A stretch of DNA of 64,000 bases from Eledone cirrhosa (lineage: Eukaryota): contig OZ024742.1 in the NCBI GenBank assembly GCA_964016885.1, positions 332,630,001 through 332,694,000 on the forward strand. The letters run 5' to 3'. The translations under genes were made by a program, and so were the position numbers. The notes under the pieces were generated by a model, which made no database searches, was not told where the DNA came from, and saw nothing but the letters and a program-made list of their open reading frames with translations. Shown here piece by piece: positions 17,084 to 57,803 of the stretch; position 1 is the first letter of the stretch; each line of letters begins with the position of its first letter.

Positions 17084-17513
17084 TTAGAAAGTGAGTTTTT
17101 TTACAAAATGAAAAATAACCGAGGGGTCCTACACGAGTGAAAGTATAAAGAAAAAAAGATGAAATCGACAATACAACTGGAGTCTCATTTAAAAAAAAAT
17201 ATATATGTTTATTTGGTTCCTTTACCGGTTTTCCAGGTCATCTGCTTTTCAAAAGTAGAATTGAGATGGAGGGTCTGTGGTTTTTCTCACATCTGATGTG
17301 AGAAAAACCACATAAAAACCACAGACCCTCCATCTCAACCCTACTTTTGAAAAGCAGAAGAACTGCGAAACCGGTAAAGGAACCAAATAAATATATATAT
17401 TTTTTTTAGTAAAACTCCAGTTGCATTTTCGATTTCATCTTTCTTTCTTTATACTTTCACTCGTGTAGGACCCCTCGGTTATTTTTCATTTTGTAAAAAA
17501 CCTCACTTTCTAA
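17084..17513. repeat. 430-bp foldback element with ~200-bp arms, flanked on both sides by (TA)n
   Basis: ttagaaagtgag..aaataaccgaggggtcctacacgagtgaaag is the reverse complement of ctttcactcgtgtaggacccctcggttattt..ctcactttctaa; central hairpin tttttctcacatc t gatgtgagaaaaa. Confidence 0.95.
17344..17379 (+). ncRNA. Minimal hammerhead motif with U3-A8 core variant in the foldback arm
   Basis: ctt-TTGAAAA-gcag aagaa ctgc-GAAA-ccgg-TA-aag, followed by aaataaa; mutated mirror copy in the left arm. Confidence 0.6.
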
Positions 17514-17519
17514 TATATA

Positions 17520-18169
17520 TATATATATATAAAACGGTAGATGTCTGTGTGTGTGTGTATGATTTTTATGCATTTCCACATTTCTCTACCGATTTTGATG
17601 ATTTTATTAACGAGCAGCTGATTGAGAAAATTCCCGGTAAAGAACACATCTTCAAATCTATCGACCGGACGTCAGACCCCAACGGTATCGTTAATTATCC
17701 GGTTGAGCTATTAAATTCCCTTGAGACCCCAGGGCTCCCACCTCACATTCTTAAGCTTAGGGTTGGCTGTCCCATTATGTTAATAACGAACTTGCGTCCA
17801 CCAAAGCAGTGCAACGGTATCCGCATGGTCGTCAAGTCACTGATGCTCCACTTGATTGAGGCCACGATTGTAACGGGGTGCGGGAGAGGGGAGAATGTTT
17901 TCATTCCAAGGATGAACCTTTTCCCCTCGGCGTCAGATATCCCGTTCGATTTCCGGCGATCCCAATTTCCGGTGAGACCATGTTTTTCCATGTCCATTAA
18001 CAAGTCACAAGGGCAAACAATGTCGGTGGCGGGCATCCATTTGGTGGAACCATGCGTCTCCCATGGCCAACTTTATGTTGCCTGTTCCCGCGTAGGGAGC
18101 AGGAATGGACTTTTTGCTTACACTTCTCAAGGGATGACACGCAATATCGTCTACAAAGAGGTGCTATAG
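17520..18169 (+). mobile_element. Internally deleted Helitron: 5' end fused to the C-terminal PIF1-like helicase part of RepHel
   Basis: tatatataaaacggtagatgtctgtgtgtg..accgattttgatga Helitron-like 5' end; ORF with YPVELLNSLETPGLPPHILKLRVGCPIML, QFPVRPCFSMSINKSQGQT, SHGQLYVACSRV, TRNIVYKEVL*. Confidence 0.9.
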
Positions 18170-28013: not shown

Positions 28014-31000
28014 CTACAGGATGGTATACAGAGAAGGCCCATTTACACGAGCCATTCTCGCCACTATCACCCACCTTTCATAAAACTGCCTGTGGCCAAG
28101 CACCTCTCTCTCCATTCTTATCCTTCTTCCGAAGTGATATCGGAAGAAGTAGACCAGACTATGGCCAGAGAGGAAGTTGCCTGACCTCAGACCTTTCAAT
28201 CGTGTCCACCAAACAACCTCTTTCAACATGGCTATTACGGACAGAAAAACCGCCTTTGCTTCCTTTGTGAAGAGGGGAGGCGGTTTGATTGTCATCACGG
28301 ACTCGGCGGTCAATTTAATCGGCGCCACCCGCGACAGCAGTTGTTCGGCGTAGCCCCACAGATCAGCCACGCCCGGACATTGCACCAATGCGTGCGCTAC
28401 GGTTTCTTCGTGACGCACGCATCTAGGGCAAATCTTTTTTGAGGGATCCCTGCCCGGGCGCCCGTGTCTGTAGAGCCTCTCTCGAACGGGTAGAGCCCCT
28501 CGGTAGCACTGCCAGGCCAGTGACTTCTGGAAGTTGTCCATTGGTCCTGGGCCGAAAGTCCTACCGAACAGGCTGGCCAGTTCGTCTTCTTCCATGTCCA
28601 GCGACTCTCCAAGGGTGTCATCGCCCCTGCTAGCCACCAGCCCTCTATAGAATGATGAGGTGGATTCTCCACCGATGGCTTGGCCCGCTTGCCAGAGAGC
28701 CCTGAGCGCCTGAGCACACTCAGTGTTCCAGTCTCCCAGTTTTCCGGATCTTTGCTTGACCCAGGACTGTAGCTCGGTGAGTGAGACGAGTCTCGGAAAG
28801 GCTCGTTTCACGAACGGAGCCCACACCGGTTGACCAGTGAGGAATACCTGTAGGTGCCGTAGCCTTAATGCGTGCCTACGCATCATCAACCACGGCATCC
28901 CCAGCCCTCCTTTCGAAGGTTGTTGGCAGCAGATGGATCTTCTCACCATAGGAGGACGCTTCTTCCAAAGAAATTGGAAGAGCATGCGTTCCATGGTGGT
29001 GAGTGTTTCCTTAGGGCAAGGCACGACAGTCAGGCGGTAGTAAGTGACGGACGCTATGTAAATGTTCGCCACCTCCGCCCGGCCTTTTAGGGACAGCTTA
29101 CACTTGGCCCATTTCTGGGTTAGTGCAAACACCTTGTTCGTAACCTCGTTCCAGTTCTTTTCCACCTGGAGGTCCGGTCCAAACCAGACCCCAAGCAACT
29201 TTACCGGGCCCTCCGTCCAGTGTCCGACGACACAGTCAGGAGGCATCGGTTTGCCTCTCCACGTTCCGAGTTGCAGCCCGATGGATTTTTCCCGGTTCAG
29301 TTTCGCTCCTGACAACCTTTCGTACTCCTCCAGTAAGGTACCGATCGCCTCGATCTCCGAGTCGGTTGATACCATTACTGTTACGTCATCGGCGTAGGCC
29401 GACACCGCTTTGCTCAATCCTGGTTCCAGGGGGATACCCTGCAACAACTCCAACTTCCTCAGTAAAGGCTCGAGAGTCAATACGTACAGAAGGGAGGAGA
29501 GAGGGCACCCCTGTCGAATGGATCGTGTGATTTCGAATGGCTTCGAAAGGTAGCCGTTCACCTTGATCCTAGAACAGATGTGGTTGCTATGTAGGGCAGT
29601 GATCCAGCCTCTGAAAACAGGACCGAACCCAGCCGCCGCTAGCACCGCATCCAGGTAACCATGGTCGACCCTATCGAAGGCCTTAGACTGATCCAAGTTG
29701 ATCAGGGCCCCACCGAAGCCGGGTTTGTTGCCAACCCTCTCTATGATGTATCGCATGAGGTGGAGGTTATCGTGAATGGACCTGGATGGGATAGCACATG
29801 TCTGCGCATCTCCCACCAGGCCACCCACGACAAGCGCCAACCTCTTTGCTAACACCTTGGCCAAAATCTTTAACTCTGTGTTTAGCAGGGTTATGAGCCG
29901 AAAATTATTTATACTATCCCCCTTGTTCTCGTCCTTCCTCACCAGCGTGACTACGCCCTTGGCTACAGAACAAGGAATTCTCCCGTTCTGCTGCCAATTG
30001 CAGTAGACCGCTTCGAGGAGTTCGGAGAAGAAGACCGGCATTGCTAAATAAAGTTCGTAAGGTATACCATCGAGACCTGGAGATTTGCGTCTGCTGCATT
30101 GGCTCAGCGCATCTCCGATCTCATCAGCCGAGATTGGTCCCTCGCAGGACTCTGCCTCTTCGTTCGAGAGACGCGGCAGGCCGTCGAGGTATGGACCGAA
30201 ATCCACGCCCCGGCCCGGACCCTCGCCTCCCCCGAACAATCGGGCAAAGTGCTTTTGAAAGGCCTCGCACATCTGTTTAGGCTCCCGGATCACTCGTCCA
30301 TCTTCGTCTTGCAACGACCGGATGGTGGATCGATTTCCACTCTTAGCTTATGTCACGCGGGCCCATCCAACGGCTTTGGCCCCCTCATTACCTAGAGCAC
30401 GTATTTTACTTCGAATGACGCAGCCTTCGTGCTTTGCATCGAAAAACTGGTTCAAGGCCGTCCTCGATGCCAGCACTCTGGCCACATCTTCGCTCTTGAT
30501 TGCCTCTTCTAATTTACCTGTTAATTCTTTCTCGTTTCTAATCCTATCGGCAGCTAACATCTTGCTATAACTTATTGATTCTGTTCTAATCTCTCTTTTG
30601 AGAGATGCCCACCATCGGTTGTTGACGATTGCACCCGTCAACCTCTCCTTAACTAATCTGCTAATCCGGTTTCTGTAAGTCTCTTTTGCCGGTAAAGACA
30701 AATTAAGTTTCCAGTAACCGGGACCCTGTCTATGTGTTTTCTCGAGATTGACCACGCAGGTCACTAATTTGTGATCCGTGTAGCCAACCGTGCGCATTTC
30801 TGGACAGCTTAATATGTCCCTATCCTTACTTCTAACTAAGAATCTATCTAAGTACGATCTAGATTGACCACTGTGGTTTCTCCAAGTCCAGGTAGGCACA
30901 GTTGGAAAATCTAGTCGATATCTATCGACCAAGTTAAAACGGTCGAGTAACCCCTTGAGGCTGTTACACCCCCCTCTATTAGGACATGCTCCTGCATAGT

Positions 31001-31451
31001 CCCAACGTGCATCCAGGATGTCATTCCAATCCCCCGCTAGAAGCAGGGAACGCGACGTTCCCAGAAAAGTCTCCAAACGCTGGAAGAAGTCGGGCCGTTC
31101 AGCTCCGAAAGGGGAGTAGACGGCGACCAGTCTCAAGGCCGCACTTTCACTATTGCCAACGTCTAGCACCAACAAACGACCCTCCGGGTCCGAGTGCACA
31201 ACCTGTACGGCAAGACCCAGGTGTTTTTGCAGCAGTACGACAACCCCACCCCCACCTCCAGGTTGACAGAGAGATGCATGCACCTCAAAGTCATCGAAGG
31301 TGGGGGCCAGCTGCCGCACGACGCTGATTCGAGTCTCACAGATAACCATTACATTTATACTACATGACCTGAGGTCATTTAGAAGCTTTGCTTGCTTCCA
31401 AGTTGAGCCCAGGCCACGTGCATTCAAACATCCTACTCTTAACACATCCAT
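28014..31451 (-). pseudogene. ORF2 of copy A (APE endonuclease, RT, C-terminal Zn finger); one in-frame TAA at 30348-30350
   Basis: CLNARGL, ICETR, GDWN, SYLDRF, TDHK; KSPGLDG, DQSKAFDRV, RQGCPLS, YADD; CPRC..ETVAHALVQC; ORFs 30348-31451 and 28014-30314 are in the same frame. Confidence 0.92.
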
Positions 31452-31484
31452 GTGGGCGGCAGAGCCAAAGGAGAGTGTAGAGAC

Positions 31485-33383
31485 CTACCTTTCCGCTTCC
31501 CGGGGTTCGGGTTGCACGACTTCCATGGGGTCGGGGTGTTGGGTGAAGGGGTGTCTTGTGGTGGTGTGGGGTCGTCAGTGTGTGGTGGGGTTGGGGTGTT
31601 TGGAGTTGTGTTGGGGAGGGGAAGGGGAGGGGGAAAGCTTTTTAGTAGGACGCGGTTTATGGGTTTGACAGAGGGTGGTCCTACGTCCTCCTTAAAATCC
31701 TTTTTTAGTTTTTGGTAGAGGTTCATTGGGATTTTTATTAGTTTTAAATGTGGGTGGTTTTCTGACGAAACAAAGTTTACACCTTCGGTTTGTACCGAAG
31801 GATTATTGTATATGAGTTCATTTAATTTATTGTTGTTTCTGTTGATGTAAGTATAGTGTAATGTCTTTTTTCCGATGGTGTGAGTGTTTCGAAGAGGGGA
31901 GGGGCAGGTTTGGTTTTGTTTGTTGCTGGAGGGGTGTTTTCTGTTTTGTTGGATTGTGTTGCGATTTGGGTGGGGGTTGTTTGTCCTTGTGTGTTTTGCA
32001 CATGTTTTCTTTTTTTCCTTTTAATCTGTCTGAAGGACTCCGTTTCTTCCTCCGAATTCGTTGGGTTATCTTCAGTGTTGGAGGGAAGAGGTATGTTTGC
32101 TGGTAATGTTTCCGTGTTGGTTTTCTTTGTGGAGGAGATGGATGTCACTATGTTAGACTGTGTTGTGTGTTGTGTATGCGGTGGTTGTGTTGTTTTCTTG
32201 AGTGAGAGGTTGGGTGGGCCTGTATTTTGTTTTGGGGTAATGTGTTGTGACTGTTTGTGTTGTGGTGGTGTTGTGGTTTTACTGAGGGACGGGTTGGGTG
32301 GGACTGAGTTTTGTTGTTTGTTTATCTGTTGTGGTGGTGGTGGTGGAGCTGGTGTTGGTAGCAGGGTTTTCTTTTTGTTGAGTTGGGGACAAGCGGCCTT
32401 CAGGTGCCCTCTGCCTGCACAGATATGGCAGGACGGCCTTCTCCCCTCCACGCTAATGTTTATATACCCGTGGTCCTCTAATAGGATTCTGTCGGGTATT
32501 TGGGCGATGCGTTCAGGCTTCATTTGTACTACCAGCTCTATACCTGTTCCACTGAACGCATTGCCTGTGGTTTTCCCAATGGAAATCACGTTGTCATTCA
32601 CTGGATCGATGAAGCCAGCTATGAGCCAGCAGTAGTCCACATCTGGCATCATTGCATCCAGCCATATGCGTTGAGTTCTTTTCCCCATATAAGATGGATA
32701 AAAGGTGAAATTTTTTGAACGAATCGGTGACAAAGCACATTTTTTTGCCGCCGATTCGTTCTTCATGATAATTGCTAGGCTTCCATACAGTCTGTCTTTT
32801 CTTATGAAAGTTGTTTCATTCAGTACTTCTGTGAGTACTGTTTTGATATCTGCTTGAGAAGGCTGTTCAGGTTTTTTTGTACTGTTGTTGATGGTCCGAA
32901 ACTTGACCGTTCGGCTTTCAATGTCTTTCGTGAATTCTTGAGGCATTTTTACCGATAAAATACCATTCTCACCTTCACTTATGTATTGTTTGGCGTCCGT
33001 GATCTTCGTACCACATCTGAAATGTTTTCCGCTATATAAGTCAAAGATTTCTTTGTTTTCTGTGCAAATGAAATCTTGTCGTCTGCTTTGTTTTCTGATA
33101 TGGTGTTATTTTCAACTGTTATTTTTTTGTTTGTTGTGTCTTTGTTTGTGTTATTAGTATTGTCATGCAATTTTTCAAATTTTTTTTTTTCGTTGTTGGA
33201 ATCCAAGTCCAGATTTATGTTTTCGTCATTTAATTTTTTCTCCGCAGATTCGTCCGTTTTTATTTTAATTTTTCCTTCCTTCTCTATGACGTTAGTGTGG
33301 AAGGAAGGGAGGACTAAAGCGTGCGAGCTTACAACTCTTACCGCTGTCCCCCCACCACTATTTTCGTTCGCTGCGTTTAACAT
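31485..33383 (-). pseudogene. ORF1 of copy A (gag-like CCHC knuckle), disrupted
   Basis: CHICAGRGHLKAAC knuckle in ORF 31822-32946; C-terminus ..EPREAER* matches copy B ..DTRDAER*. Confidence 0.8.
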
Positions 33384-33652
33384 TTCTGTTAGACGATTGA
33401 AATTTTTTACACGAAATTTTTTAAAACAGGTTTTTCACCTCTAGGAGGGGTAAAGATGAGCTGACCCACCGCCTGACAGTTCAGACGGATGGTCAAGATG
33501 CACAATTGTATCAAAATTAAGTTTGAACTCACAACATTTCCTCAATAAATTTGAACAAAACTTCTGTGCGAAGTGAATGACATCCACACTGTAGAACAGA
33601 CGACAGCTAGATTATAGATATATAGATAGTTAGATGGAAAGATAAATAGATA

Positions 33653-36600
33653 TGTTTCTTTTATTTGCCACCAAGGCATCAAAAGTGGGACAAGTACAAC
33701 GGGGGGAGTTTACAAAACAAGGCGTCCTCAATAAGGAGGAGGCAATAACAATATATAAAAATAAAATAAAATATAACAAAAAATAAAATTTATAACAAAG
33801 TCCTCAATAGAGAGGAGGCGCCTTGGGGGGTCGCACACACCCCCGAAAAAAAGTGTGCAACCCTTTTCCTCAGGAGCACAGAGAAGGGGTGCTCCCTTGG
33901 TCTTTCATCTTCCTCACTTATAGTCTGATGTAGAGTGAAGGCCCATTCACACGGGCCATTCTCGCCACTTTCACCCATCTTTCATAAAAACGGCTGGGGT
34001 GCAGCACCTCTCTCTCCATCCTGATCCTTCTTCCGAAATGATATCGGAAGAAACGGACCAGTTGTTGGCTAGAGAGAAAGGTGTCTGACCTCAGTCCTTT
34101 CAGACGCGTCCACCATACAACCTCTTTCGCCATGGCTATTACGCACAGAAACACCGCCTCTTCTTCGTTTTTGAAGAGGGGAGGCGGCTTGATCGTTACA
34201 ATAGACTCGGTGGTCAACCGGATCGGACCCACCCTTGACAGCAGTTGTTCGACATAGCCCCACAGATCGGCAATGCCCGAGCAGTGTACCAATGCGTGTG
34301 CAACGGTTTCCTCATCGCACACGCATCTGGGACAGATCTTTTTCGAGGGGTCCCTACCCGGGCGCCCGTGTCTGTAGAGCCTTTCTCGAACGGGCAGAGC
34401 CCTTCTGTAGCATTGCCAGGCCAGGGACCTCTGGAAGTTGTCCATGGGTCCCGGGCTGAATGTCCTACCGAACAGGTTGGCCAGTTCGTTTTCCTCCATG
34501 CCTAGGGCTTCTCCGAGGGCGTCGTCGCACCTGCTAACCACCAGCCCTCTATAGAATGACGAGGTGGATTCTCCACTGACAGCTGGGTCCGCCTGCCAGA
34601 GAGCCGTGAGCCCCTGGGCACACTCGGTGTGCCAGGCGCCCAGTTTTCTCGGTCTTTTCTTGACCCAGGATTGCAGCTCGGTGAGTGAGACGAGTCTGGG
34701 AAAGGCTCGCCTCACAAACGGGGCCCACACCGGTTGACCGGAGAGGAATACCTGAAGGTGCCGTAGCTTTAATGCGTGTTTACGTATCATTAGCGACGGC
34801 ACCCCCAGCCCTCCTTTCGAAGGGTGTTGACAGCAGATGGATCTCCTCACCATAGGAGCCCGCTTCTTCCAAAGGAATTGGAAGAGTGCGCGCTCCATTT
34901 TGGCGAGCGTTTCCCTTGGGCAAGGCACAACGGTGAGGCGGTAGTAGATGACGGACGCTATATAAGTGTTCGCCACCTCCGCCCGACCTTTCAGGGACAG
35001 TTTGCACTCGGCCCACTTCTGGGTCAGTGCAAACACCCTGTTCGTTACCTCACCCCAGTTCTTCTCCACCTGGAGGTCTGGTCCGAACCAGACCACGAGC
35101 AACTTCACCGGGCCCTCCGTCCAGCGCCCGACGACGCCATCGGAGGGCATCGATCTGCCCCTCCACGTGCCGAGTTGCAGACCGGTCGACTTGTCCCGGT
35201 TCAGCTTAGCCCCTGTAAAACTTTCGTACTCCTCCAGTAAGGTGCCGATCGCCCCGATTTCCGAGGCGGTCGACACCATTACTGTTACGTCATCGGCGTA
35301 GGCTGACACCGCTTTCCGCAATCCCGGTTCCAACGGGATGCCCTGCAACAACTCCAACTTCCGTAGCAGTGGCTCTAGAGTCACTACATACAGAAGGGAG
35401 GAGAGAGAGCACCCCTGTCGGATGGACCGCGCGATTTCGAACGGCTCCGAGAGGTAGCCGTTCACCTTGACCCTAGAGCAGATGCGGCTGCTGTGCATGG
35501 CATTGATCCAGCCCCTGAAAACGGGTCCGAAGCCTGCCGCCGCTAGCACCGCATCCAGGTAAACATGGTCGACCCTATTGAATGCCTTAGATTGATCCAA
35601 GTTGATCAGGGCCTCACCAAAGCCGGGTTCGTTCCCAACCCTCTCTATGATGTATCGCATGAGGTGGAGGTTGTCGTGGATGGACCTGGACGGGATAGTA
35701 CATGTCTGCGCATCTCCCACCAGGTTACCCACGACAAGCGCCAACCCCTTTGCTAGCACCTTGGCCAAACTCTGTAACTCTGTATTTAGCAGAGTTATGG
35801 GCCTGAAATTATTTATATCGTCCCCCTTGTTCTCGTCCTTCCTCACTAGCGTGACTACGCCCTTGGTCACAGCACAGGGAATTCTCCCGTTCTGTTGCCA
35901 GTTGCAGTAGACCGCCTCGAGGAGATCGGGGAACAAGTCCGGCATAGCTAGATATAGTTCGTATGGAAGACCATCGAGACCCGGGGATTTGCGTTTGCCG
36001 CATTGGCTCAGCACGTCCTCTATCTCAGCGGCTGAAATCGGCTCCTCGCACAACTTCGCCTCCCTGTCCGAGAGACGCGACAGGCCGTCGAGGTATGGAC
36101 CGAAGTCCACATCCCCAGCCGGCTCCCCGCCCCTTCCGAACAATGCGGCAAAGTGCTTTTGAAAGGCCTCGCACATCTGCTTAGGCTCAAGGATCACCCG
36201 TCCATCCTGGTCTCGCAAAGACCGGATATTGGATCTGCTCCCTCTTTTGGCTTCTGTCACGCGGGCCCAGCTAACAGCTTTGGTCCCCTCGTTTCCCAGA
36301 GCACGTATTTTGCTTCGGACGATGCAGCATTCGTGTTTCGCGTCGAAGAACTGGCCCAGGGCCGTTCTCGACGCTAGCACTCTGGCCACGTCACCGCTCC
36401 TAATTGCCTCTTCTACACTATCTACCAACTCCCTTTCCTTCCTATTTCTATTTGAGGCTAACTCCTTACTAAATTCTATAGAGACTACTCTAATCGCTAT
36501 TTTGAGAGATCCCCACCACCTGCTGTTGACGATGGCGCCCGTCAACCGCTCCTTAACTAAAGTGTTAATCCGGTCCCTGTAAGCCTTACTTGCCGGTAAG

Positions 36601-38295
36601 GACAAGTTGAGCTACCAGTAACCGGGTCCCTGTCTATGAGTTCTGTCAAGGTTGACCATGCAGGTCACTAACTTGTGGTCTGAATAGCCAACCATGCGCA
36701 TTTTTGGACAACTTAAAAAGTCCTTATCCTTAATTCTAACTAAGAACCTATCTAGGTACGACCTAGATGATCCGCTACGATTTGCCCAAGTCCAGGTTGG
36801 CGCAGTCGGAATATTTGGTCGATATCTATCGGCCAGGTCAAATCGACCGATTAACCCTTTGAGGCTATTACACCCCTCTCTATCGGGACAGGCCCCTACG
36901 TAGTCCCAGCGTGCATCTAGGATACCATTCCAGTCCCCCACTAATAGCAAGGAGCGGGACGTCCCTAGAAAAGTCTCCAGACGATGGAAGAAGTCCGGCC
37001 GCATTGACCCGAAAGGGCCGTAGGCGGCTACCAACCTAAACGCTCCGCCTTTACCACTGCCAAGGTCCAGAACCACTAGTCGACCCTCCGGGTCCAAATG
37101 TACCATCTGTGTTGCGAGACCTAGATGTTTTTGCAGCAGAACGACAACCCCACCCCCACCTCCGGGCTGACAGAGAGATGCGTGCATCTCAAAGTCATCA
37201 AAGGTGGGGGCCAGCTGTCGCACGTTGCTGATCCGGGCTTCGCAAATAACCATTACATCTATACGTTGTGACCTGAGGTCATTTAGAAGCATTGCTTGCT
37301 TCCAAGTTGAGCCCAGGCCACGCGCATTTAAACAGCCTACTCTTAGCATAGCCATGTTGGCGGTGAAGAGAAAATGCACTTACCTCTCTGCGTCCCGGGT
37401 ATCGGGCTGCACAATTTCCATTAGGGTGGGGGATGGGTTGTTGGGTGGGGTGGTGGTTTGTGGAGGTGTAGGGGTATCAGTGTGTTGTGTGGTTGGGGAG
37501 TTTGGAGTTGTGTGGGTGATTGGGGAGGGGGTGGGGTAGTTTTTTAGGAGGACGCGGTTAATGGGCCCGACGCAGGGGGGACCCACGTCCTCTTTAAAGT
37601 TGTTTTTTAAAGTTTTATAGGTGTCCTATAGGGCCTTAATCATTTTGAGGTGGGGGAAATCCCCTGCCTGGGTGAAGTTAGGCCCTTGGGTTTTTATTAG
37701 ATTGTTGTTGTACACAATGTTTAACAGTTTTTTGTTTCTTGTGTTTATGTATGTGTATGCATGTTTTTGTTTTTGTGTGGTGTTTTTTGTTTGCTGTTGT
37801 TGTGAGCTCTTTTGTGTTGGTGTCAGTGTTATGTTTTGGGGAGGGGTTTTTTTCATTTGTGTGTCTGAGGTGTGTTTTCTTTTTTTTCTTTTGATTGTGT
37901 GGAAGTGCTCCTCCTCGTCTGACGACGAATTAGGGTCATCTTCCGCGTTGGAGGGGAGGGGTATACTTTCGGGTTGTGTTTGCGGTGCGGGTGTTTTGGA
38001 AATGTTTTTGTTTTTTGAGTGGGGGGAATGGGTTGGACATTGTTTTGTTTTGGTTTGAGCTGTGGTGGTTGTTTTTGTAATGGTAGTTGTGGTGATTGTG
38101 TTGGTTGGGCAGTTGTTGGTGGTGTAGGCAGGATTGGGGTTTTCTTATTAAGTTGGGGACAGACAGCCCTCAGGTGACCTCTGGTTCCGCAGAGGTAACA
38201 CGAGGGCCGCCTACCCTCACCGGTAATGTTGATGAAAATTTGATCATCCAGTATGACGCGTTCAGGGATCTGGGCGATCCTTTCGGGCCTCATTT
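33653..38295 (-). mobile_element. 5'-truncated Tx1/L1-clade LINE (copy B, sister subfamily) with 20-bp TSD gatggaaagataaatagata (33633-33652 / 38296-38315)
   Basis: Truncated inside ORF1 (QMRPERIAQIP..CYLCGTRGHLRAVC); exact direct-repeat flanks. Confidence 0.92.
33918..37355 (-). pseudogene. ORF2 of copy B (APE, RT, Zn finger); one in-frame TAG at 36612-36614
   Basis: GPGYW*LNLSL versus GPGYWKLNLSL in copy A; YADD and CPRC..HALVHC intact. Confidence 0.92.
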
Positions 38296-47911: not shown

Positions 47912-49742
47912 TTTCGCGATGAATAGGACAAACCTAACACGCGACGAGCTCCGAATCATACACGCCGCCAACAAGACCATGATCTAATTTGGTGGGGACA
48001 TATGAACCCGGAGCGACTGGCCAAATAATTTTGACATTACAATGGGTTCCAGTGACTCCGCGCAGCTAACGGACTTGGTTGGGATATACATACTCTACGA
48101 GATCAAGAGAGAAATACCCAACCTGGGTGGCGGGCTGTACCGAGACGACGCACTATTCACCCTAGTGGACCACAGCACCACAATGGTCGAAATTATGAAG
48201 AGGAGAATTAGGCACTTCTTTAGCAAGGTAGGACTTAAAGTAGAGATGGAATCCAATAGAAAAGTAGTGAATTTCCTGGACACCACCCTCAACCTCAACA
48301 CCAAGCTACACCACTCATATCATAAACCCAATGAGAAGCTGGTGTATATCAACGCTGGGTCCAATCACCCTAGATCTATAGTTAAGGCCGTAGTTAAGAG
48401 TGTCTCTGACAGGATCTCTAACTTGTCAGCCAATAAAGAGATATTCAATAGTAACGTTGATTACTATAACTCAGCGCTAGCCAAGGCGTCCCACAGCCAT
48501 AGGATCAGCTACAACCCTAAGGGACATGATCGAAATGACCAAAGGGTACCCAGGACAAATACCCTCAGGGGCATGAGTCGCCCACCTAATACCTCGGTGA
48601 CCAGTAGTAACACTCCCCGACCTCAATCCGTCACCACCCCCGGTAGAAGGTCCCGCATACCCCACCGGTCTAATACCTACAACGCTGAAGACCACTGTGC
48701 TGCGGAGCATAGGCACCCCTGCCCTGGCCCCACCACCCGCCGAACCCTAATTGAGCAGGGAGGCCGCACCTTGCAGGTTTATAGCCCCACGGTGGGCCCA
48801 TGTAACCCTCATGATAGTGACCGCTCCGCACACCTGATTGACACCAACCGAGCTCGACCTGAGCTGTGCACAACCACGCGATGGACCACGGCGGACACCC
48901 AAAAACCCCGCAAGAATAGGACCCGGAAGTTCACATGGTATAACCCTCCGTACTCGGTGGTTCTCCGTACCAGCCTGGCTAGAACATTCTTTAGAGTACT
49001 GGATAAATGTTTTCCTATGGCCCACAAGTACCATAAAATATTCAACAGGCACACGGTGAAACTTTCCTACTCAACCACACGCTCCGAAGCCCAGCACATA
49101 GCTGGCATAAATAGGAATAGGCTCACTGCCTCTAATACCACCGTAAACCCCGGAGCCACCTAACAGAACCAGCACGCGGAACGCACCGGAACAAGGACAG
49201 GCCCAACTATCACACCGGAACCCAACGACCCTGTGCTGATTGCAGAGGCTACCCAGCCAACCCCGAGTGATGGTAACCACGCGGTACATGTGGTGGGGCT
49301 TAAGAAGTCATGTAATTGCAGAGACCCATCACTATGCCCCCTCAGTAATCAATGAATGACGAAAAACGTAGTCTACAGGTGCAAGGTCACAACCCCTAAC
49401 ACGGAGCACCACTACATAGTATCCACAGCGACGAGCTTCAAAGATCGGTGGTATAACCATTGCTATTCCTTTAACAGAATAGATAAGAGGAAATGTACGG
49501 CCCTTTCTGAATTGATCTGGAAGCTCAAACTTGAAAATACCCCGCACTCTCTGGTCTGGTCCGTGGTTAGAAAGGTTCCCCCAGACAGAGGCGGGTCTGG
49601 TATTTGCAACCTCTGTCTTAGTGAGACACTCGAGATACTTCATGGCGGAACCAAGCTATTAAACAGAAGGACCGATATTCGGTGCCTGCAGACAGCTAAG
49701 GACGGGAACTTTCCTCAAACTATATGGATAAACCCCGGTTAA
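47912..49742 (+). pseudogene. PLE RT-thumb-linker-GIY-YIG reading frame with in-frame stops (two 5' of 48042, TAA 49161, TGA 49353)
   Basis: FDITMGSSDSAQLTDLVGIYIL..GLYRDDAL, VNFLDTTLNL, SNHP, RKFTWYNPPYS, TVKLSYS, CNCRDPSLCPLSNQ*, VVYRC..FKDRWYNH..TALSELIW..CNLCLSE. Confidence 0.9.
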
Positions 49743-49911
49743 TGCCTCCCACAACTCCCCCCCCCCTCCCCATGTAGGTCCCCTACACCCCGTACCAATA
49801 ACCAATGGATAACAACAACACCCACCACCCATAGTTTGTGGTCCCTGTGGTGGATGGTCCACCGGATCCTCTACTGGATAGGAGTCATCAAAACCACGTT
49901 TATTGAACTTG

Positions 49912-49969
<58 letters not shown>

Positions 49970-51030: not shown

Positions 51031-51086
51031 ACTGCCTGATGAGGTCATAGCCATGCAATGACTATCATCGAAATATATATAGCAGT
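51031..51086 (+). ncRNA. Type-I hammerhead ribozyme at the PLE 3' terminus
   Basis: actgc-CTGATGA-ggtcatagccatgcaatgactatcatc-GAAA-tatata-TA-gcagt then aaataaa; perfect 5-bp stem I, palindromic stem III. Confidence 0.8.
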
Positions 51087-51272
51087 AAATAAAGGATTAT
51101 GAGTTCTTGCAATTGACTTATGTTTCGTCACTATATATATATATATATATATATGCTTTTTCGCCAACTTACACAAAGTCTGAGGATAAAGTTTTTCTTC
51201 TTGATTTATTTTAGATTAAGATTGTATTACTTTTCCCACATCTTACATTGAAAATCTTTTCATCTTGATGGT

Positions 51273-52678
51273 AAAATATAATAAAAAAGAATATAATAGA
51301 AAATGAGAGACAGATATATCAGAATGTAAGATTGGAAAGTGGGAAGGGAAATAAAACAAAAACTAAGGAGTCTAACACAGCTGCTATACTTAGTTGGTCC
51401 TTCTTCTTTGGGGGCCAATGCTATAGAATGGGTTGACAGATGAGAATTATTGAAAATTTAGTATTGGGTATTAAATATTAATACCACATCTCTGGGGTCT
51501 AACACAGCTGCTATGATTACTTAGTATAGCGTAATCGGCGAATGCTATCTGTCAGTTACTGGGATGGGGGTACTGAGGCTAAAGAGGCCCGATGGGCGCT
51601 TCGTGGTAGGCGAAAGAGGAAAAAAAACAAAGGAACGAACGAGGAAGAAGTTCGGTGGTGGAAAGAAGTGATAGGGAGCAGACACTGGGAAGAAGAAAAC
51701 ATAGAGGAAAAGGAAAGGGGTACATCTACCTATATAAGTTGGGGATTTCCCTATCTTATTCTGCAAGCGGGGTATTTAGGCCCCTGTCTACCCACCCGGA
51801 TCATTAGGGGGTTTGAGGGCGAGGTAAGTCTTCTGCAATCTGTGTTTGCATGCATTTACCAGTTCATCTTTTTTGTTTAGGAGTTGATCCTTCGTAAACA
51901 GCATTTGTAATGTTTCCTCCGAGCATAAGTTACATGGACGGCGTTCTCCCCTGTAAGAGTTAGCTCTTACCATCGTACTTGGAGCTTATTATCCTGAGCT
52001 AACTCTTACACGGGAGGACGCCGTCCATGTAACTTATGCTCAGAGGAAACATTACAAATGCTGTTTACGAAGGATCAACTCCTAAACAAAAAAGATGAAC
52101 TGGTAACTGCATGGAAACACAAATTGCGGAAGACTTACCTCGCCCTCAAACCCCCTAATGATCCGGGTGGGTAGACAAGGGCTGAAACACCCCACTTGCC
52201 GAATAAGATAGGGAAATCCCCAACTTATATAGGTAGATGTACCCCTTTTCTTTTCCTCTATGTTTTCTTCTTCTATTTGTCTCTTCCTTTCACTTCTTTC
52301 CACCACCGAACTTCTTCCTCGTTCGTTCCTTTGTTTTTTCCCCTTCCGCCTACCCGAGGCGCCCATCTGGCCTCTTTAGCCTCATTACCCCCACCCTGAC
52401 AGAGAGCATTCGTCGATTACGCTATATTAACTAATCATAGCAGCTGTGTTAGACCCCAGAGATGTGGTATTAATATTTAATACCCAATTCTAAATTTTCA
52501 ATAATTCTCATCTAGCAACCCATTCTATAGCATTGGCCCCCAAAGAAGCAGCACCAACTAAGTATAGCAGCAGTGTTAGACTCCTTAGTTTTTGTTTTAT
52601 TTCTCTTCTCACTTTCCAATCTTACATTCTGATATATATGTCTCTCATTTTCTATTATATTCTTTTTTATTATATTTT
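51273..52678. mobile_element. Head-to-head inverted pair (~690-bp arms, 29-nt spacer) of a PLE 3' end
   Basis: Arms 51273-51966 and 51996-52678 are reverse complements; they encode RANSY..PCNLCSEETLQML..LLNKKDELVNACKH (GIY-YIG C-terminus). Confidence 0.9.
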
Positions 52679-53115: not shown

Positions 53116-54422
53116 TGTGTGTGTGTGTGTGTATAATTACAACAACCCAGATATTAACTGATGTTCCCTCAAACACTACTGCTATTGTTATCACCAGATC
53201 TAAGCACGACTCATTTATATACACTATTTCATTTCAAGTGGATGGTTGATAAATTGCAGAAACATCAGTGTATATAAGATAAATCAGTGTATATAAGATG
53301 CCTGATCAAGCACTTCAGATAAAAAGTTTTCTGGAACGTCAGTGATGCTTACTTTACACGTAGAATTCTAATCCTATATTTTCTGGAAGAAATGAGCAGA
53401 GATTTTCTATCGTCTAAACATTTCTATTTCTGTATTGTCTCCTCTCTTCTGAGAATAGTTGATATAAATGATGATGAATGGTTAATAATGGTGATTGCGT
53501 TTGTATACGGACCCCGTTCATCTTGCGAAGATATTTGCAGACGTCTAGCTTTCACTAATATAATTACACAACTACATCACATTACAGGATAACAAGCATT
53601 TTAACATAGATAGTTATAGTGAAAATAAAATCGTGTCCTTTTACTATCTGAAAATCGTATTGTTCTTTTATTCTATTGAAGCAAAGAAAAGCATTCTTAA
53701 CGACTGATGATGATTACCATCTTTAAAATCAAATTCAATAATAAAACGGTTGTTGAAGTGATAACCATACGTATAGAGAGAGTGGTGCGATATTTGTTCA
53801 AAGATATTACTTCTACATTAAGATGTCTTGTTTTATGTCAGTGGTTCCACCATTTAATAGATACAAATGATGTATATAGATTATCTGTATGGGATGCTTC
53901 GGTTAAAGAATATAAAAGGTGATGGGGTGAACGTGATATAACAGAAGAAAAATAAATGTTCTAAGATAAACAATTATCAATCTAAATCATTTCTCGATTG
54001 TATATAAGACCCGAGGCTGCAGACAGGTAAAAGTCAGCTGTCTGTTGACTTGGTAAAATAATAGAATGAACACGAAACATTTTGGTTATAAATTTTGTTG
54101 TCACACTTTATAGATACTAATCGATTTACAATATATATGTGCAGGCCAGATTGTCAAATTTGTTACATATTTTCCGTATAGACCCAACGTTATTTCATCT
54201 AGCTGTTCACAAGATAGTCACCAGGTAGTCACAGTGAATAGATATTAACTATATAATCAAATGTGTAACATCGTATCTATATAGACATAATGCACATGAT
54301 CACAATAATTTTAGTAAAATGTTTTGTGTATTTTCTATATAGAAACAACATTATTGTGAGTATATATTCCAAAGATAACCAAGATGTGTAAATGCCGGCG
54401 TGATCGTTAAATGTGTCATATA

Positions 54423-54630
54423 TAGTATTCTGCATGTTCTTCTAAGATTTGTCGGTTAGATGAGAGGCGGGAGATCCTAAGGGATATGCTGCGTGGAATG
54501 GATTTAATTATGTATAGTGGGTGGTTTGAGTTACAGTTGATGTATGCTAAGTTTTCATTAATCTTGTGAAAAGGTCTTATAAGTCCCGTATTTAGGTTAA
54601 GCGTCGCGTCTAGAAAGTTAACTGTTTTAG
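54423..54630 (-). mobile_element. PLE RT/thumb fragment, inverted relative to and abutting the 591-bp array
   Basis: Minus, open frame: KTVNFLDATLNLNTGLIRPFHKINENLAYINCNSNHPLYIIKSIPRSISLRISRLSSNRQILEEHAEYY. Confidence 0.9.
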
Positions 54631-54655
54631 TTCTTGAGACTAGTAAAATGAGGTA

Positions 54656-54743
54656 TCCTCTTGATAAGTCGGCAGACCTCGCAAGGACTCTATATCTTTG
54701 ATATATTGTTTTTGTTTATGCCACGAAACTACGTAGTCGAGGA
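54656..54743 (+). ncRNA. Type-I hammerhead, U3-A8 core variant, array copy 1
   Basis: tcctc-TTGATAA-gtcggca..tgccac-GAAA-ctacgtag-TC-gagga; predicted cleavage 3' of C54738 (GUC). Confidence 0.8.
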
Positions 54744-55246
54744 ATTTAGGAACAGTTTAGGTATGATACATTTTATTACTAATTATATCTAAATGTTTCT
54801 TCTCTCTTCATAATGTATTTTTAACTCTGATACTGGTTCAGTCTGGTTCAAACTGAATTGGTCTGTCCCAGTCATTCATTGAGCAACATCGGTGAAGTTG
54901 GCACCCTTAACTCACAGTTGGGTGCGGATGCATTCATGTATATATGTGTGTGTCCGCATGTATCTGTGTGTTTCTTAATATATTAATAACTCCCTCTGGT
55001 CGAGCAATCTTTGAAGTGTGGGGACAACTGGAAAGCTTCCATTACTCATACTTCTCGCCTTCTTCACTACCTCTTCTACGGCCTCGATATGAATACCCCC
55101 TCCGCCTCCGTGGTATTTTCTTCGTGGTTATAAGAGGCTTAGCTCTGTTTCTCGACCGTTATATCGCGTGACTATCTCCCCCTCCGCCTTTTGGGATTCT
55201 TTCTCACGTCGTGTAGACGCGTTCTTGAGACTAGTAAAATGAGGTA

Positions 55247-55334
55247 TCCTCTTGATAAGTCGGCAGACCTCGCAGGGACTCTATATCTTTGATATATTGT
55301 TTTTGTTTATGCCACGAAACTACGTAGTCGAGGA
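55247..55334 (+). ncRNA. Hammerhead, array copy 2
   Basis: Same motif at +591. Confidence 0.8.
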
Positions 55335-55837
55335 ATTTAGGAACAGTTTAGGTATGATACATTTTATTACTAATTATATCTAAATGTTTCTTCTCTCTTC
55401 ATAATGTATTTTTAACTCTGATACTGGTTCAGTCTGGTTCAAACTGAATTGGTCTGTCCCAGTCATTCATTGAGCAACATCGGTGAAGTTGGCACCCTTA
55501 ACTCACAGTTGGGTGCGGATGCATTCATGTATATATGTGTGTGTCCGCATGTATCTGTGTGTTTCTAAATATATTAATAACTCCCTCTGGTCGAGCAATC
55601 TTTGAAGTGTGAGGACAACTGGAAAGCTTCCATTACTCATACTTCTCGCCTTCTTCACTACCTCTTCTACGGCCTCGATATGAATACCCCCTCCGCCTCC
55701 GTGGTATTTTCTTCGTGGTTATAAGAGGCTTAGCTCTGTTTCTCGACCGTTATATCGCGTGACTATCTCCCCCTCCGCCTTTTGGGATTCTTTCTCACGT
55801 CGTGTAGACGCGTTCTTGAGACTAGTAAAATGAGGTA

Positions 55838-55925
55838 TCCTCTTGATAAGTCGGCAGACCTCGCAGGGACTCTATATCTTTGATATATTGTTTTTGTTTA
55901 TGCCACGAAACTACGTAGTCGAGGA
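55838..55925 (+). ncRNA. Hammerhead, array copy 3
   Basis: Same motif. Confidence 0.8.
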
Positions 55926-56428
55926 ATTTAGGAACAGTTTAGGTATGATACATTTTATTACTAATTATATCTAAATGTTTCTTCTCTCTTCATAATGTAT
56001 TTTTAACTCTGATACTGGTTCAGTCTGGTTCAAACTGAATTGGTCTGTCCCAGTCATTCATTGAGCAACATCGGTGAAGTTGGCACCCTTAACTCACAGT
56101 TGGGTGCGGATGCATTCATGTATATATGTGTGTGTCCGCATGTATCTGTGTGTTTCTAAATATATTAATAACTCCCTCTGGTCGAGCAATCTTTGAAGTG
56201 TGAGGACAACTGGAAAGCTTCCATTACTCATACTTCTCGCCTTCTTCACTACCTCTTCTACGGCCTCGATATGAATACCCCCTCCGCCTCCGTGGTATTT
56301 TCTTCGTGGTTATAAGAGGCTTAGCTCTGTTTCTCGACCGTTATATCGCGTGACTATCTCCCCCTCCGCCTTTTGGGATTCTTTCTCACGTCGTGTAGAC
56401 GCGTTCTTGAGACTAGTAAAATGAGGTA

Positions 56429-56516
56429 TCCTCTTGATAAGTCGGCAGACCTCGCAGGGACTCTATATCTTTGATATATTGTTTTTGTTTATGCCACGAA
56501 ACTACGTAGTCGAGGA
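56429..56516 (+). ncRNA. Hammerhead, array copy 4
   Basis: Same motif. Confidence 0.8.
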
Positions 56517-57019
56517 ATTTAGGAACAGTTTAGGTATGATACATTTTATTACTAATTATATCTAAATGTTTCTTCTCTCTTCATAATGTATTTTTAACTC
56601 TGATACTGGTTCAGTCTGGTTCAAACTGAATTGGTCTGTCCCAGTCATTCATTGAGCAACATCGGTGAAGTTGGCACCCTTAACTCACAGTTGGGTGCGG
56701 ATGCATTCATGTATATATGTGTGTGTCCGCATGTATCTGTGTGTTTCTAAATATATTAATAACTCCCTCTGGTCGAGCAATCTTTGAAGTGTGAGGACAA
56801 CTGGAAAGCTTCCATTACTCATACTTCTCGCCTTCTTCACTACCTCTTCTACGGCCTCGATATGAATACCCCCTCCGCCTCCGTGGTATTTTCTTCGTGG
56901 TTATAAGAGGCTTAGCTCTGTTTCTCGACCGTTATATCGCGTGACTATCTCCCCCTCCGCCTTTTGGGATTCTTTCTCACGTCGTGTAGACGCGTTCTTG
57001 AGACTAGTAAAATGAGGTA

Positions 57020-57107
57020 TCCTCTTGATAAGTCGGCAGACCTCGCAGGGACTCTATATCTTTGATATATTGTTTTTGTTTATGCCACGAAACTACGTAG
57101 TCGAGGA
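57020..57107 (+). ncRNA. Hammerhead, array copy 5
   Basis: Same motif. Confidence 0.8.
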
Positions 57108-57610
57108 ATTTAGGAACAGTTTAGGTATGATACATTTTATTACTAATTATATCTAAATGTTTCTTCTCTCTTCATAATGTATTTTTAACTCTGATACTGG
57201 TTCAGTCTGGTTCAAACTGAATTGGTCTGTCCCAGTCATTCATTGAGCAACATCGGTGAAGTTGGCACCCTTAACTCACAGTTGGGTGCGGATGCATTCA
57301 TGTATATATGTGTGTGTCCGCATGTATCTGTGTGTTTCTAAATATATTAATAACTCCCTCTGGTCGAGCAATCTTTGAAGTGTGAGGACAACTGGAAAGC
57401 TTCCATTACTCATACTTCTCGCCTTCTTCACTACCTCTTCTACGGCCTCGATATGAATACCCCCTCCGCCTCCGTGGTATTTTCTTCGTGGTTATAAGAG
57501 GCTTAGCTCTGTTTCTCGACCGTTATATCGCGTGACTATCTCCCCCTCCGCCTTTTGGGATTCTTTCTCACGTCGTGTAGACGCGTTCTTGAGACTAGTA
57601 AAATGAGGTA

Positions 57611-57698
57611 TCCTCTTGATAAGTCGGCAGACCTCGCAGGGACTCTATATCTTTGATATATTGTTTTTGTTTATGCCACGAAACTACGTAGTCGAGGA
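57611..57698 (+). ncRNA. Hammerhead, array copy 6 (70 nt before the terminal (TA)n)
   Basis: Same motif. Confidence 0.8.
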
Positions 57699-57764
57699 AT
57701 TTAGGAACAGTTTAGGTATGATACATTTTATTACTAATTATATCTAAATGTTTCTTCTCTCTTC

Positions 57765-57803
<39 letters not shown>

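What the first reader, a model, noticed from the sequence alone, without database searches (positions are those of the whole stretch)
54423..54660. Array fused head-to-head to an inverted, still-open Penelope RT fragment: physical link to its likely mobiliser
Seen: immediately left of unit 1 is a minus-strand 208-bp open frame (VNFLDATLNL..SNHP..RISRLSS) homologous to the PLE at 48260-48480. The whole cassette is bounded by TATA on the left and (TA)n on the right. Established: PLE insertions often carry inverted 5' segments, and PLEs have been proposed as mobilisers of non-LTR retrozymes. Inference: array and RT fragment were inserted in one PLE-mediated event with a template switch, so either a parasite RNA used the PLE RT or a PLE terminal repeat circularised and was amplified.
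Basis: partly seen in the sequence, partly recalled or inferred. Interest (0 to 1): 0.75.

Follow-up and report, generated by a model that had tools for sequence, protein, structure and literature searches.

The report
Retrozyme array fused to Penelope fragment
A young array of a small repeat with a predicted self-cutting RNA motif is joined back to back to a 209-base scrap of a Penelope-type jumping gene; the two were likely pasted in together from the two ends of one DNA cut, but the scrap comes from an older family than the one that best matches the repeat, so it likely records mixed copying rather than naming the repeat's carrier.

Summary
Observation confirmed, interpretation half right. 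Window 54423-54631 is a 209-bp internal RT piece, 97-98% identical to a Hydra-type Penelope-like family (X), joined 5'-to-5' by a 2-bp overlap to 5.3 copies of a 591-bp type I hammerhead unit (7,135 motif matches genome-wide). The unit's insertions end at two fixed sites (A, B); 57 of 57 two-armed insertions with canonical ends pair A with B, as Hydra PLEs here do. In the window the RT piece stands where the B arm should be. One two-ended insertion is likely (about 0.7 with its variant); two private changes in the piece keep 'older relic' alive. The fusion does not name the mobiliser: two other fused loci carry different PLE families, X is older and mostly broken, and a sister family (Y; 4 of 20 copies with a full ORF) matches the unit's ends best. 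The unit is not part of X. The scan already noted the A/B two-armed pattern in other retrozyme families of this genome and one retrozyme-PLE tail fusion; new here are the mixed arms from three PLE families and the ranking of carriers.

The parts
54419..54424 (.). Short TATATA remnant of the target at the left end; the last TA is shared with the 3' end of the RT piece
   Evidence: sequence; family comparison; junction bridged by one unitig
54423..54631 (-). 209-bp internal RT (motif C-terminal/thumb region, label recalled) piece of Hydra-type PLE family X; both ends non-canonical; 3' end at ACTA|CA, the local sequence of X's site B; two private C>A changes at 54513 and 54443
54630..54631 (.). 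2-bp overlap at the head-to-head (5'-to-5') junction
   Evidence: other two-armed junctions overlap by 0-6 nt
54630..57773 (+). Array of 5.32 copies of the 591-bp unit, ending at site A (unit position 189)
54630..55220 (+). Unit 1: a different family haplotype from units 2-5 (positions 55, 347, 392); identical to full units at other loci
54656..54743 (+). Predicted type I hammerhead (U3-A8 core variant, long stem II, short palindromic stem III; predicted cut after 54738); repeated every 591 bp, six copies
   Evidence: variant described in PMC4209133; no Rfam hit
54810..54818 (+). Site A (unit position 189), the short fixed 3' end of the family; used as the array's right end at 57773
54975..54983 (+). 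Site B (unit position 354), the long fixed 3' end; not used as an end at this locus
54998..55007 (+). GGTCGAGCAA motif just 3' of site B, shared with Hydra families X and Y at the same place; candidate recognition signal (inferred)
57768..57801 (.). (TA)n target tract at the right end

Best explanation
The array and the inverted RT piece likely entered in one two-ended insertion at a TA site: the right DNA end likely primed reverse transcription on the retrozyme RNA at site A, the left end likely primed on a stray transcript of PLE family X, and the two copies were joined 5'-to-5' at a 2-bp overlap. Shown: the anatomy, the fixed A and B ends, the A+B rule in the unit and in Hydra families X and Y, and fusions with three PLE families. 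Inferred: a Hydra-type RT/GIY-YIG protein cuts (TA)n and extends both ends; it normally takes sites A and B of one RNA (probably a 591-nt circle, since arms run over several units); now and then the second end takes another PLE RNA. The X piece is then a bystander template. The carrier is likely a Hydra family with matching ends, Y being the best of three tested (my odds: Y 0.5, X 0.15, other 0.35).
For: Of 112 insertions at 110 loci, 57 are two-armed with both ends canonical and all 57 pair A with B; none A/A or B/B. X copies do the same in 11 of 11 simple two-armed copies among 20 (read by eye) and Y in 5 of 5 among 20. At the window each piece is antisense cDNA to its adjoining target end, the geometry of priming from both ends. 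The RT piece replaces the B arm and ends at ACTA|CA as X's site B does; that hexamer has 2 internal sites in 3,336 nt (chosen after the fact). Two more head-to-head fusions, each TA-anchored at both outer ends: unit B arm with 2.15 kb of a Neptune-like PLE (L087) and unit B arm with 5.6 kb of young Hydra family Z ending at Z's short end (L091). PLE coding DNA is 2.9% of flanks, so 2 such junctions among 10 foreign 5' junctions has P about 0.01-0.04. A PLE protein extends both strands, starts at two internal RNA sites and is predicted to be a dimer (PMC11167929). Unit ends score best against Y (A+B z 4.9; X 2.4; Z 1.7), spacing 165 nt against 173, 133 and 139.
Against: The piece has 2 private changes in 209 bp while the 3,144-bp array has no single-unit private change; if these arose after insertion the piece is older (P at most 0.017), and no source copy carrying them was found (40 scored of 637 candidates; read depth). 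No other X copy ends at this site into TA (1 match, this locus), so it is not a regular start. Other foreign 5' junctions land in what look like pre-existing repeats, some not head-to-head (L276, L262, L073). No fusion was found in the 48 loci of the unbiased sample, and none with Y. The A-site similarity to Y alone is not significant (p 0.04-0.17). Only three Hydra families were compared. Cleavage, circles and enzyme specificity are untested.
Confidence: 0.5

Rival explanations
1. One event, one strand: the RT copying the retrozyme from the right end jumped templates twice, first to a second retrozyme molecule, then to antisense PLE-X RNA, cDNA or DNA, and the product was joined to the left TATATA by a 2-nt match.
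For: The arm switches family haplotype between units 1 and 2, just before the junction; only 3 of 57 arms of 1.6 units or more change at two or more family-polymorphic sites. The site is not a recurrent X end. Antisense templates for PLE inversions were proposed in PMC3846280.
Against: Needs an antisense template; priming from the left end explains the orientation with sense RNA, and matches the family's rule. The haplotype switch could also be gene conversion or a second insertion.
Confidence: 0.18
2. Two events: an older X remnant lay here, and the array later inserted in the neighbouring (TA)n, its 5' end joining inside the remnant with loss of the DNA between.
For: Two private changes in the piece against none in the array; X copies are typically 2.5% from their majority; the left junction shows no branch in one sample, as if fixed on both chromosomes or on the only one sampled; other 5' junctions fall in unrelated repeats.
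Against: Needs a separate earlier 3' truncation exactly at a TA; no other X coding sequence lies in the window; all three PLE fusions at true 5' junctions are head-to-head.
Confidence: 0.22
3. One reading: family X itself is the mobiliser, or the unit is an amplified terminal repeat of X.
For: X shares the order hammerhead, A, B, motif, a U3-A8-type core read by eye, and TA targeting; one of 38 near-full copies keeps RT and EN in one frame; its youngest partial copies are 0.7-0.9% from the majority.
Against: Unit against X's terminal region is no better than shuffles (49 of 200 and 122 of 500 reach the score); X ends in ACT, the unit and Y in TAT; near-full X copies differ by at least 1.75% while units are often identical; fusions involve three families.
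Confidence: 0.1

Closest known systems
Metazoan non-LTR retrozymes (Cervera and de la Pena 2020, PMC7229834, passages; Li, Clavereau and Pollet, bioRxiv 10.64898/2026.07.22.740005, parts 1-3 of 5)
   Same: Dispersed short tandem arrays of a unit with one type I hammerhead; PLEs proposed as carriers; size inside the 51-972 bp range of the preprint.
   Different: Longer than the 170-400 nt of the 2020 paper; U3-A8 core and long stem II; fixed A/B ends, two-armed insertions and fusion to PLE pieces were not in the text I read.
Hydra-clade Penelope-like elements (Craig et al. 2021, PMC8557442, passages and section 11)
   Same: Families X and Y have RWK, DKT, CxCX5C, no CCHH, C-terminal GIY-YIG and TA targets; inverted 5'-truncated copy with a tail at one end only.
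   Different: The tail here is 133-173 nt, not 30-40; the inverted arm at this locus belongs to another element.
Two-site internal initiation by the Anolis PLE PAc (Frangieh et al. 2024, PMC11167929, parts 1-2 of 4)
   Same: AT-rich target, both strands extended, two RNA start sites that define the tail.
   Different: PAc starts were not homologous to the target, here ends overlap TA by 1-6 nt; one start per DNA end and mixed templates were not reported in the parts read.
L1 twin priming and U6-L1 chimeras (recalled; only a search listing seen)
   Same: Two primers, inverted junction with short overlap; chimeras of two RNAs.
   Different: L1 twin priming uses one RNA and a variable second site; U6-L1 chimeras are co-oriented. 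Here both sites are fixed and the mixed arms are inverted.

Membership tests
Metazoan non-LTR retrozyme (the 591-bp unit) | Tandem units, each with a type I hammerhead motif | tested here: met
   Six copies in the window; 221 of 232 matched units share the same core and stems I and III
Metazoan non-LTR retrozyme (the 591-bp unit) | Canonical hammerhead (CUGANGA core, loop 1-loop 2 contact) | tested here: inconclusive
   U3-A8 variant, known from PLE hammerheads; long stem II; no Rfam hammerhead at gathering score or at E up to 10
Metazoan non-LTR retrozyme (the 591-bp unit) | Dispersed at many loci as short arrays | tested here: met
   7,135 exact motif matches, reversed control 0; 110 loci read
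Metazoan non-LTR retrozyme (the 591-bp unit) | No encoded transposition protein | tested here: met
   tblastn with X and Y proteins hits only outside arrays; the unit's 80-codon stop-to-stop frame was not searched further
Metazoan non-LTR retrozyme (the 591-bp unit) | Unit size | tested here: inconclusive
   591 bp: outside 170-400 nt, inside 51-972 bp
Metazoan non-LTR retrozyme (the 591-bp unit) | Self-cleavage and accumulation as circular RNA | not testable with these tools
   Circular fold is stable (-172 kcal/mol, z -6.4 against 30 shuffles); this is a prediction only
Hydra-clade PLE (source of the RT piece, family X) | RWK, DKT, CxCX5C, no CCHH, CxxC and CxH around a C-terminal GIY-YIG | tested here: met
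   Read by eye in the ORFs of L193 (X) and L256 (Y), against section 11 of PMC8557442
Hydra-clade PLE (source of the RT piece, family X) | Insertion into (TA)n with inverted 5'-truncated copy and one-sided tail | tested here: met
   tail longer than in print
Hydra-clade PLE (source of the RT piece, family X) | Canonical hammerhead in the terminal repeat | tested here: inconclusive
   Canonical core seen in Z; only a degenerate candidate by eye in X; none assigned in Y
Hydra-clade PLE (source of the RT piece, family X) | Placement in the Hydra clade on an RT tree | not tested
   No tree with reference elements was built
Terminal repeat (pLTR) of family X, Y or Z | Unit alignable to the PLE terminal repeat over its length | tested here: not met
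   Longest non-simple shared word with X is the 10-nt motif region; only the B region aligns to Y

The most novel reading that the evidence does not exclude
Hydra PLE complexes prime the two ends of one cut independently and asymmetrically (one short-end, one long-end start), so that arms from different RNAs, even of different PLE families and retrozyme circles, are joined in one insertion with the A+B pairing kept. Mixed arms would then be a general route for shuffling PLE and retrozyme parts, and the motif beside site B would be the signal by which family Y carries this retrozyme.
Probability: 0.3. Interest if true: 0.72.

Novelty: new variant of a known kind. Interest (0 to 1): 0.5.

Why it matters
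How animal retrozymes move, and how PLEs make their inverted arms and one-sided tails, are open questions: carriage by PLEs is proposed from co-occurrence and terminal-repeat likeness. This locus and its family give testable specifics: two start sites on the unit, a candidate signal, named candidate proteins with natural full ORFs, and a prediction of mixed-arm products. It also warns that a fused RT scrap does not identify the carrier. The family-level pattern was already noted by this scan for other units, which limits what this locus adds.

Tried and rejected
Rfam found no hammerhead; the miRNA hits are hairpins and simple repeats. TRF misses the array (period limit 500). Pfam on the 69 aa gave only a sub-cutoff DUF5048 hit. 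Neighbouring PLE as donor: rejected. Nested insertion with the RT continuing right of the array: rejected within the window. Recurrent internal start at the piece's 3' end: not found. Source copy with the two private changes: not found. Paralogous empty site: none. No RNA holder listed. L073's left arm looked like a third element but is a common TA-associated repeat. Arm lengths of two-armed loci do not correlate (rho -0.11, n 63). One search did not reach Z's sequence beyond site B; one search did. Literature: no paper with retrozyme, head-to-head and insertion; searches gave no listing that describes retrozyme-PLE fusions, judged from titles, abstract starts and the passages read. Not seen: the preprint's supplements (closed) and the supplements of PMC8557442, which may hold octopus Hydra consensus sequences that bear on the naming of X, Y and Z.

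Full report
1. The observation. The window is G000:C3:332630001-332694000 of a 3.0-Gb animal assembly. A search with it returns a high-copy family at 97-98% (1,374 candidates, 40 scored), here called X. Against 29 of these copies the piece is exactly 54423-54631; its 5' end overlaps the array's first base pair by 2 nt and its 3' end runs into TATATA with 2 nt shared. It is not derived from the neighbouring PLE (37/68 aa, 118/205 nt). Openness means little: 25 of 29 copies are open over the same codons. No other X coding sequence lies in the 64 kb. The left flank is unique and its junction to the piece is bridged in three runs of one sample; the piece-to-array junction rests on the assembly alone.

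2. The array. 54630-57773 holds 5.32 copies of a 591-bp unit. Each has a predicted type I hammerhead: 5-bp stem I, U3-A8 core, long stem II and a palindromic stem III; 221 of 232 units matched in fetched loci keep these letters. U3-A8 cores and palindromic helix III are described for PLE hammerheads (PMC4209133, passages). Rfam does not call it. A 24-nt piece of the motif has 7,135 exact matches in the assembly, reversed control 0.

3. How the family inserts. I read 110 loci: the window plus 37 from the unit search (biased to the youngest haplotype), 48 from the first 100 places and 24 from a motif variant. One partial locus was dropped and one segmental duplicate counted once. Of 112 insertions, 57 have two arms head-to-head with canonical ends; all 57 pair site A (unit 183-195) with site B (353-362), none A/A or B/B (0.5^57 if arms were independent); 5 have one odd end and 50 have one arm. 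Inner junctions overlap by 0-6 nt. In 12 of 63 arm pairs both arms exceed one unit. This fits two DNA ends priming at two sites of one RNA, probably a circle (inference). The scan had noted the same pattern for units of 311, 422, 460 and 466 bp, seen after my own counts; these are unchecked notes, not support.

4. The PLEs do the same. X has two fixed ends 133 nt apart, paired A+B in 11 of 11 simple two-armed copies among 20 (by eye). A 10-nt motif follows site B in both X and the unit. A relaxed search for it found a sister family Y, 72% identical to X over 475 aa, with ends 173 nt apart, A+B in 5 of 5. X and Y carry the Hydra signatures of PMC8557442 section 11; no tree was built. A PLE protein in vitro extends both strands and starts at two RNA sites, and is predicted to be dimeric (PMC11167929, parts 1-2 of 4).

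5. One event or two. For one event: the array ends at A and the RT piece sits where the B arm belongs; each piece is antisense to the RNA when read from its adjoining target end; the overlap is typical; the piece ends at ACTA|CA like X's site B, a hexamer with 2 internal sites in 3,336 nt (18 for ACTA; post hoc). Two further fusions exist among the other 111 insertions: L087, a B arm joined to 2.15 kb of a Neptune-like PLE (clade label from recalled motifs) with its own hammerhead and end, and L091, a B arm joined to 5.6 kb of a third Hydra-like family Z ending at Z's short end. By eye, 10 insertions besides the window join foreign sequence; 2 are these, against 2.9% PLE coding DNA in 747 kb of flank (an underestimate, as few queries were used), P about 0.01-0.04. 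Against: two changes in the piece are private while the array has no single-unit private change, P at most 0.017 if post-insertion; no other X copy ends there; none of the 48 unbiased loci is fused; some junctions fall in repeats in other orientations; the sample shows no branch at the left junction. The arm itself switches haplotype between units 1 and 2, seen in 3 of 57 long arms, which suggests a template jump or a second arrival. I put one event at about 0.7 (two-ended priming 0.5, single-strand jump 0.18) and two events at about 0.22.

6. Does the piece name the mobiliser? No. Three fusions involve three families, none Y. Of 40 X copies that keep the 5' motif, 38 were fetched here: 1 keeps RT and EN in one frame and differs from the piece at 7 of 209; the closest pair differs by 1.75% (7 truncated rows aligned badly). 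The youngest partial X copies are 0.7-0.9% from the majority, so X is not excluded. Of about 40 Y places listed, 20 were fetched: 4 have 793-794-aa ORFs and the six closest pairs differ by 0.36-0.64%, close to the age of the arrays. The unit's ends finish in TAT as Y's do (9 and 7 of the last 12 nt identical; X 4 and 4; Z 7 and 7); combined end scores are z 4.9 (Y), 2.4 (X), 1.7 (Z), and the local alignment beats 500 of 500 shuffles only for Y. Nearly all of that signal is at site B. Z is young and abundant but lacks the motif beside B. Other Hydra families were not compared. The unit is not a recent terminal repeat of X, Y or Z, though an old origin from such a repeat fits the shared order hammerhead, A, B, motif and the preprint's proposal.

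7. Against what is known. The unit works like, and mostly passes as, a non-LTR retrozyme; cleavage and circles are untested. Inverted 5'-truncated copies with a one-sided tail are standard PLE anatomy (PMC8557442 and PMC3846280, passages), and carriage of retrozymes by PLEs is proposed (PMC7229834, passages; preprint parts 1-3 of 5). My searches showed no paper on retrozyme-PLE fusions or fixed paired ends; subscription papers and supplements were not seen.

8. Verdict. Real feature, likely one mixed-template insertion by Hydra-type machinery; not proof of which element carries the retrozyme. New variant of a known kind; interest 0.5.

Noticed in passing
window 54630-55220, runs X4, X5, X7: The unit lies at 0-1 differences, with the 591-base joint, in runs labelled as three other organisms, without this locus's flank. 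Cross-contamination by a very abundant repeat or real sharing between species; not resolved.
   Followed up: partly
window 51031-51087: A canonical-looking hammerhead core (CTGATGA ... GAAA) about 1.1 kb downstream of the neighbouring PLE.
   Followed up: no
window about 51275-52676: A 1.4-kb imperfect palindrome centred near 51980, probably another head-to-head insertion.
   Followed up: no
window 47915-49920: Degraded PLE of another family with C-terminal GIY-YIG; a 94% copy lies in L067.
   Followed up: partly
L286 (oriented) from 3200: A family-Z copy breaks off at (TA)n and is followed by what looks like the very start of 18S rRNA (label recalled, not checked).
   Followed up: no
L084 4398-4615: An old relative of the unit at 72% identity covering sites A to B, beside a young array.
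   Followed up: partly
L066 left of 4482: The array's 5' end joins an inverted duplication of its own flank across a TA tract, as if the second end copied flanking DNA.
   Followed up: partly
L318-L347, L278-L302: Family Z is young and abundant (1,434 candidates; median 0.71% between 93 gap-free pairs) with a 3' region over 3 kb full of microsatellites.
   Followed up: partly
window 28017-38144 and 17378-18166: Two tandem LINE-like copies with endonuclease and RT frames on the minus strand, and a PIF1-like helicase frame (labels recalled).
   Followed up: no
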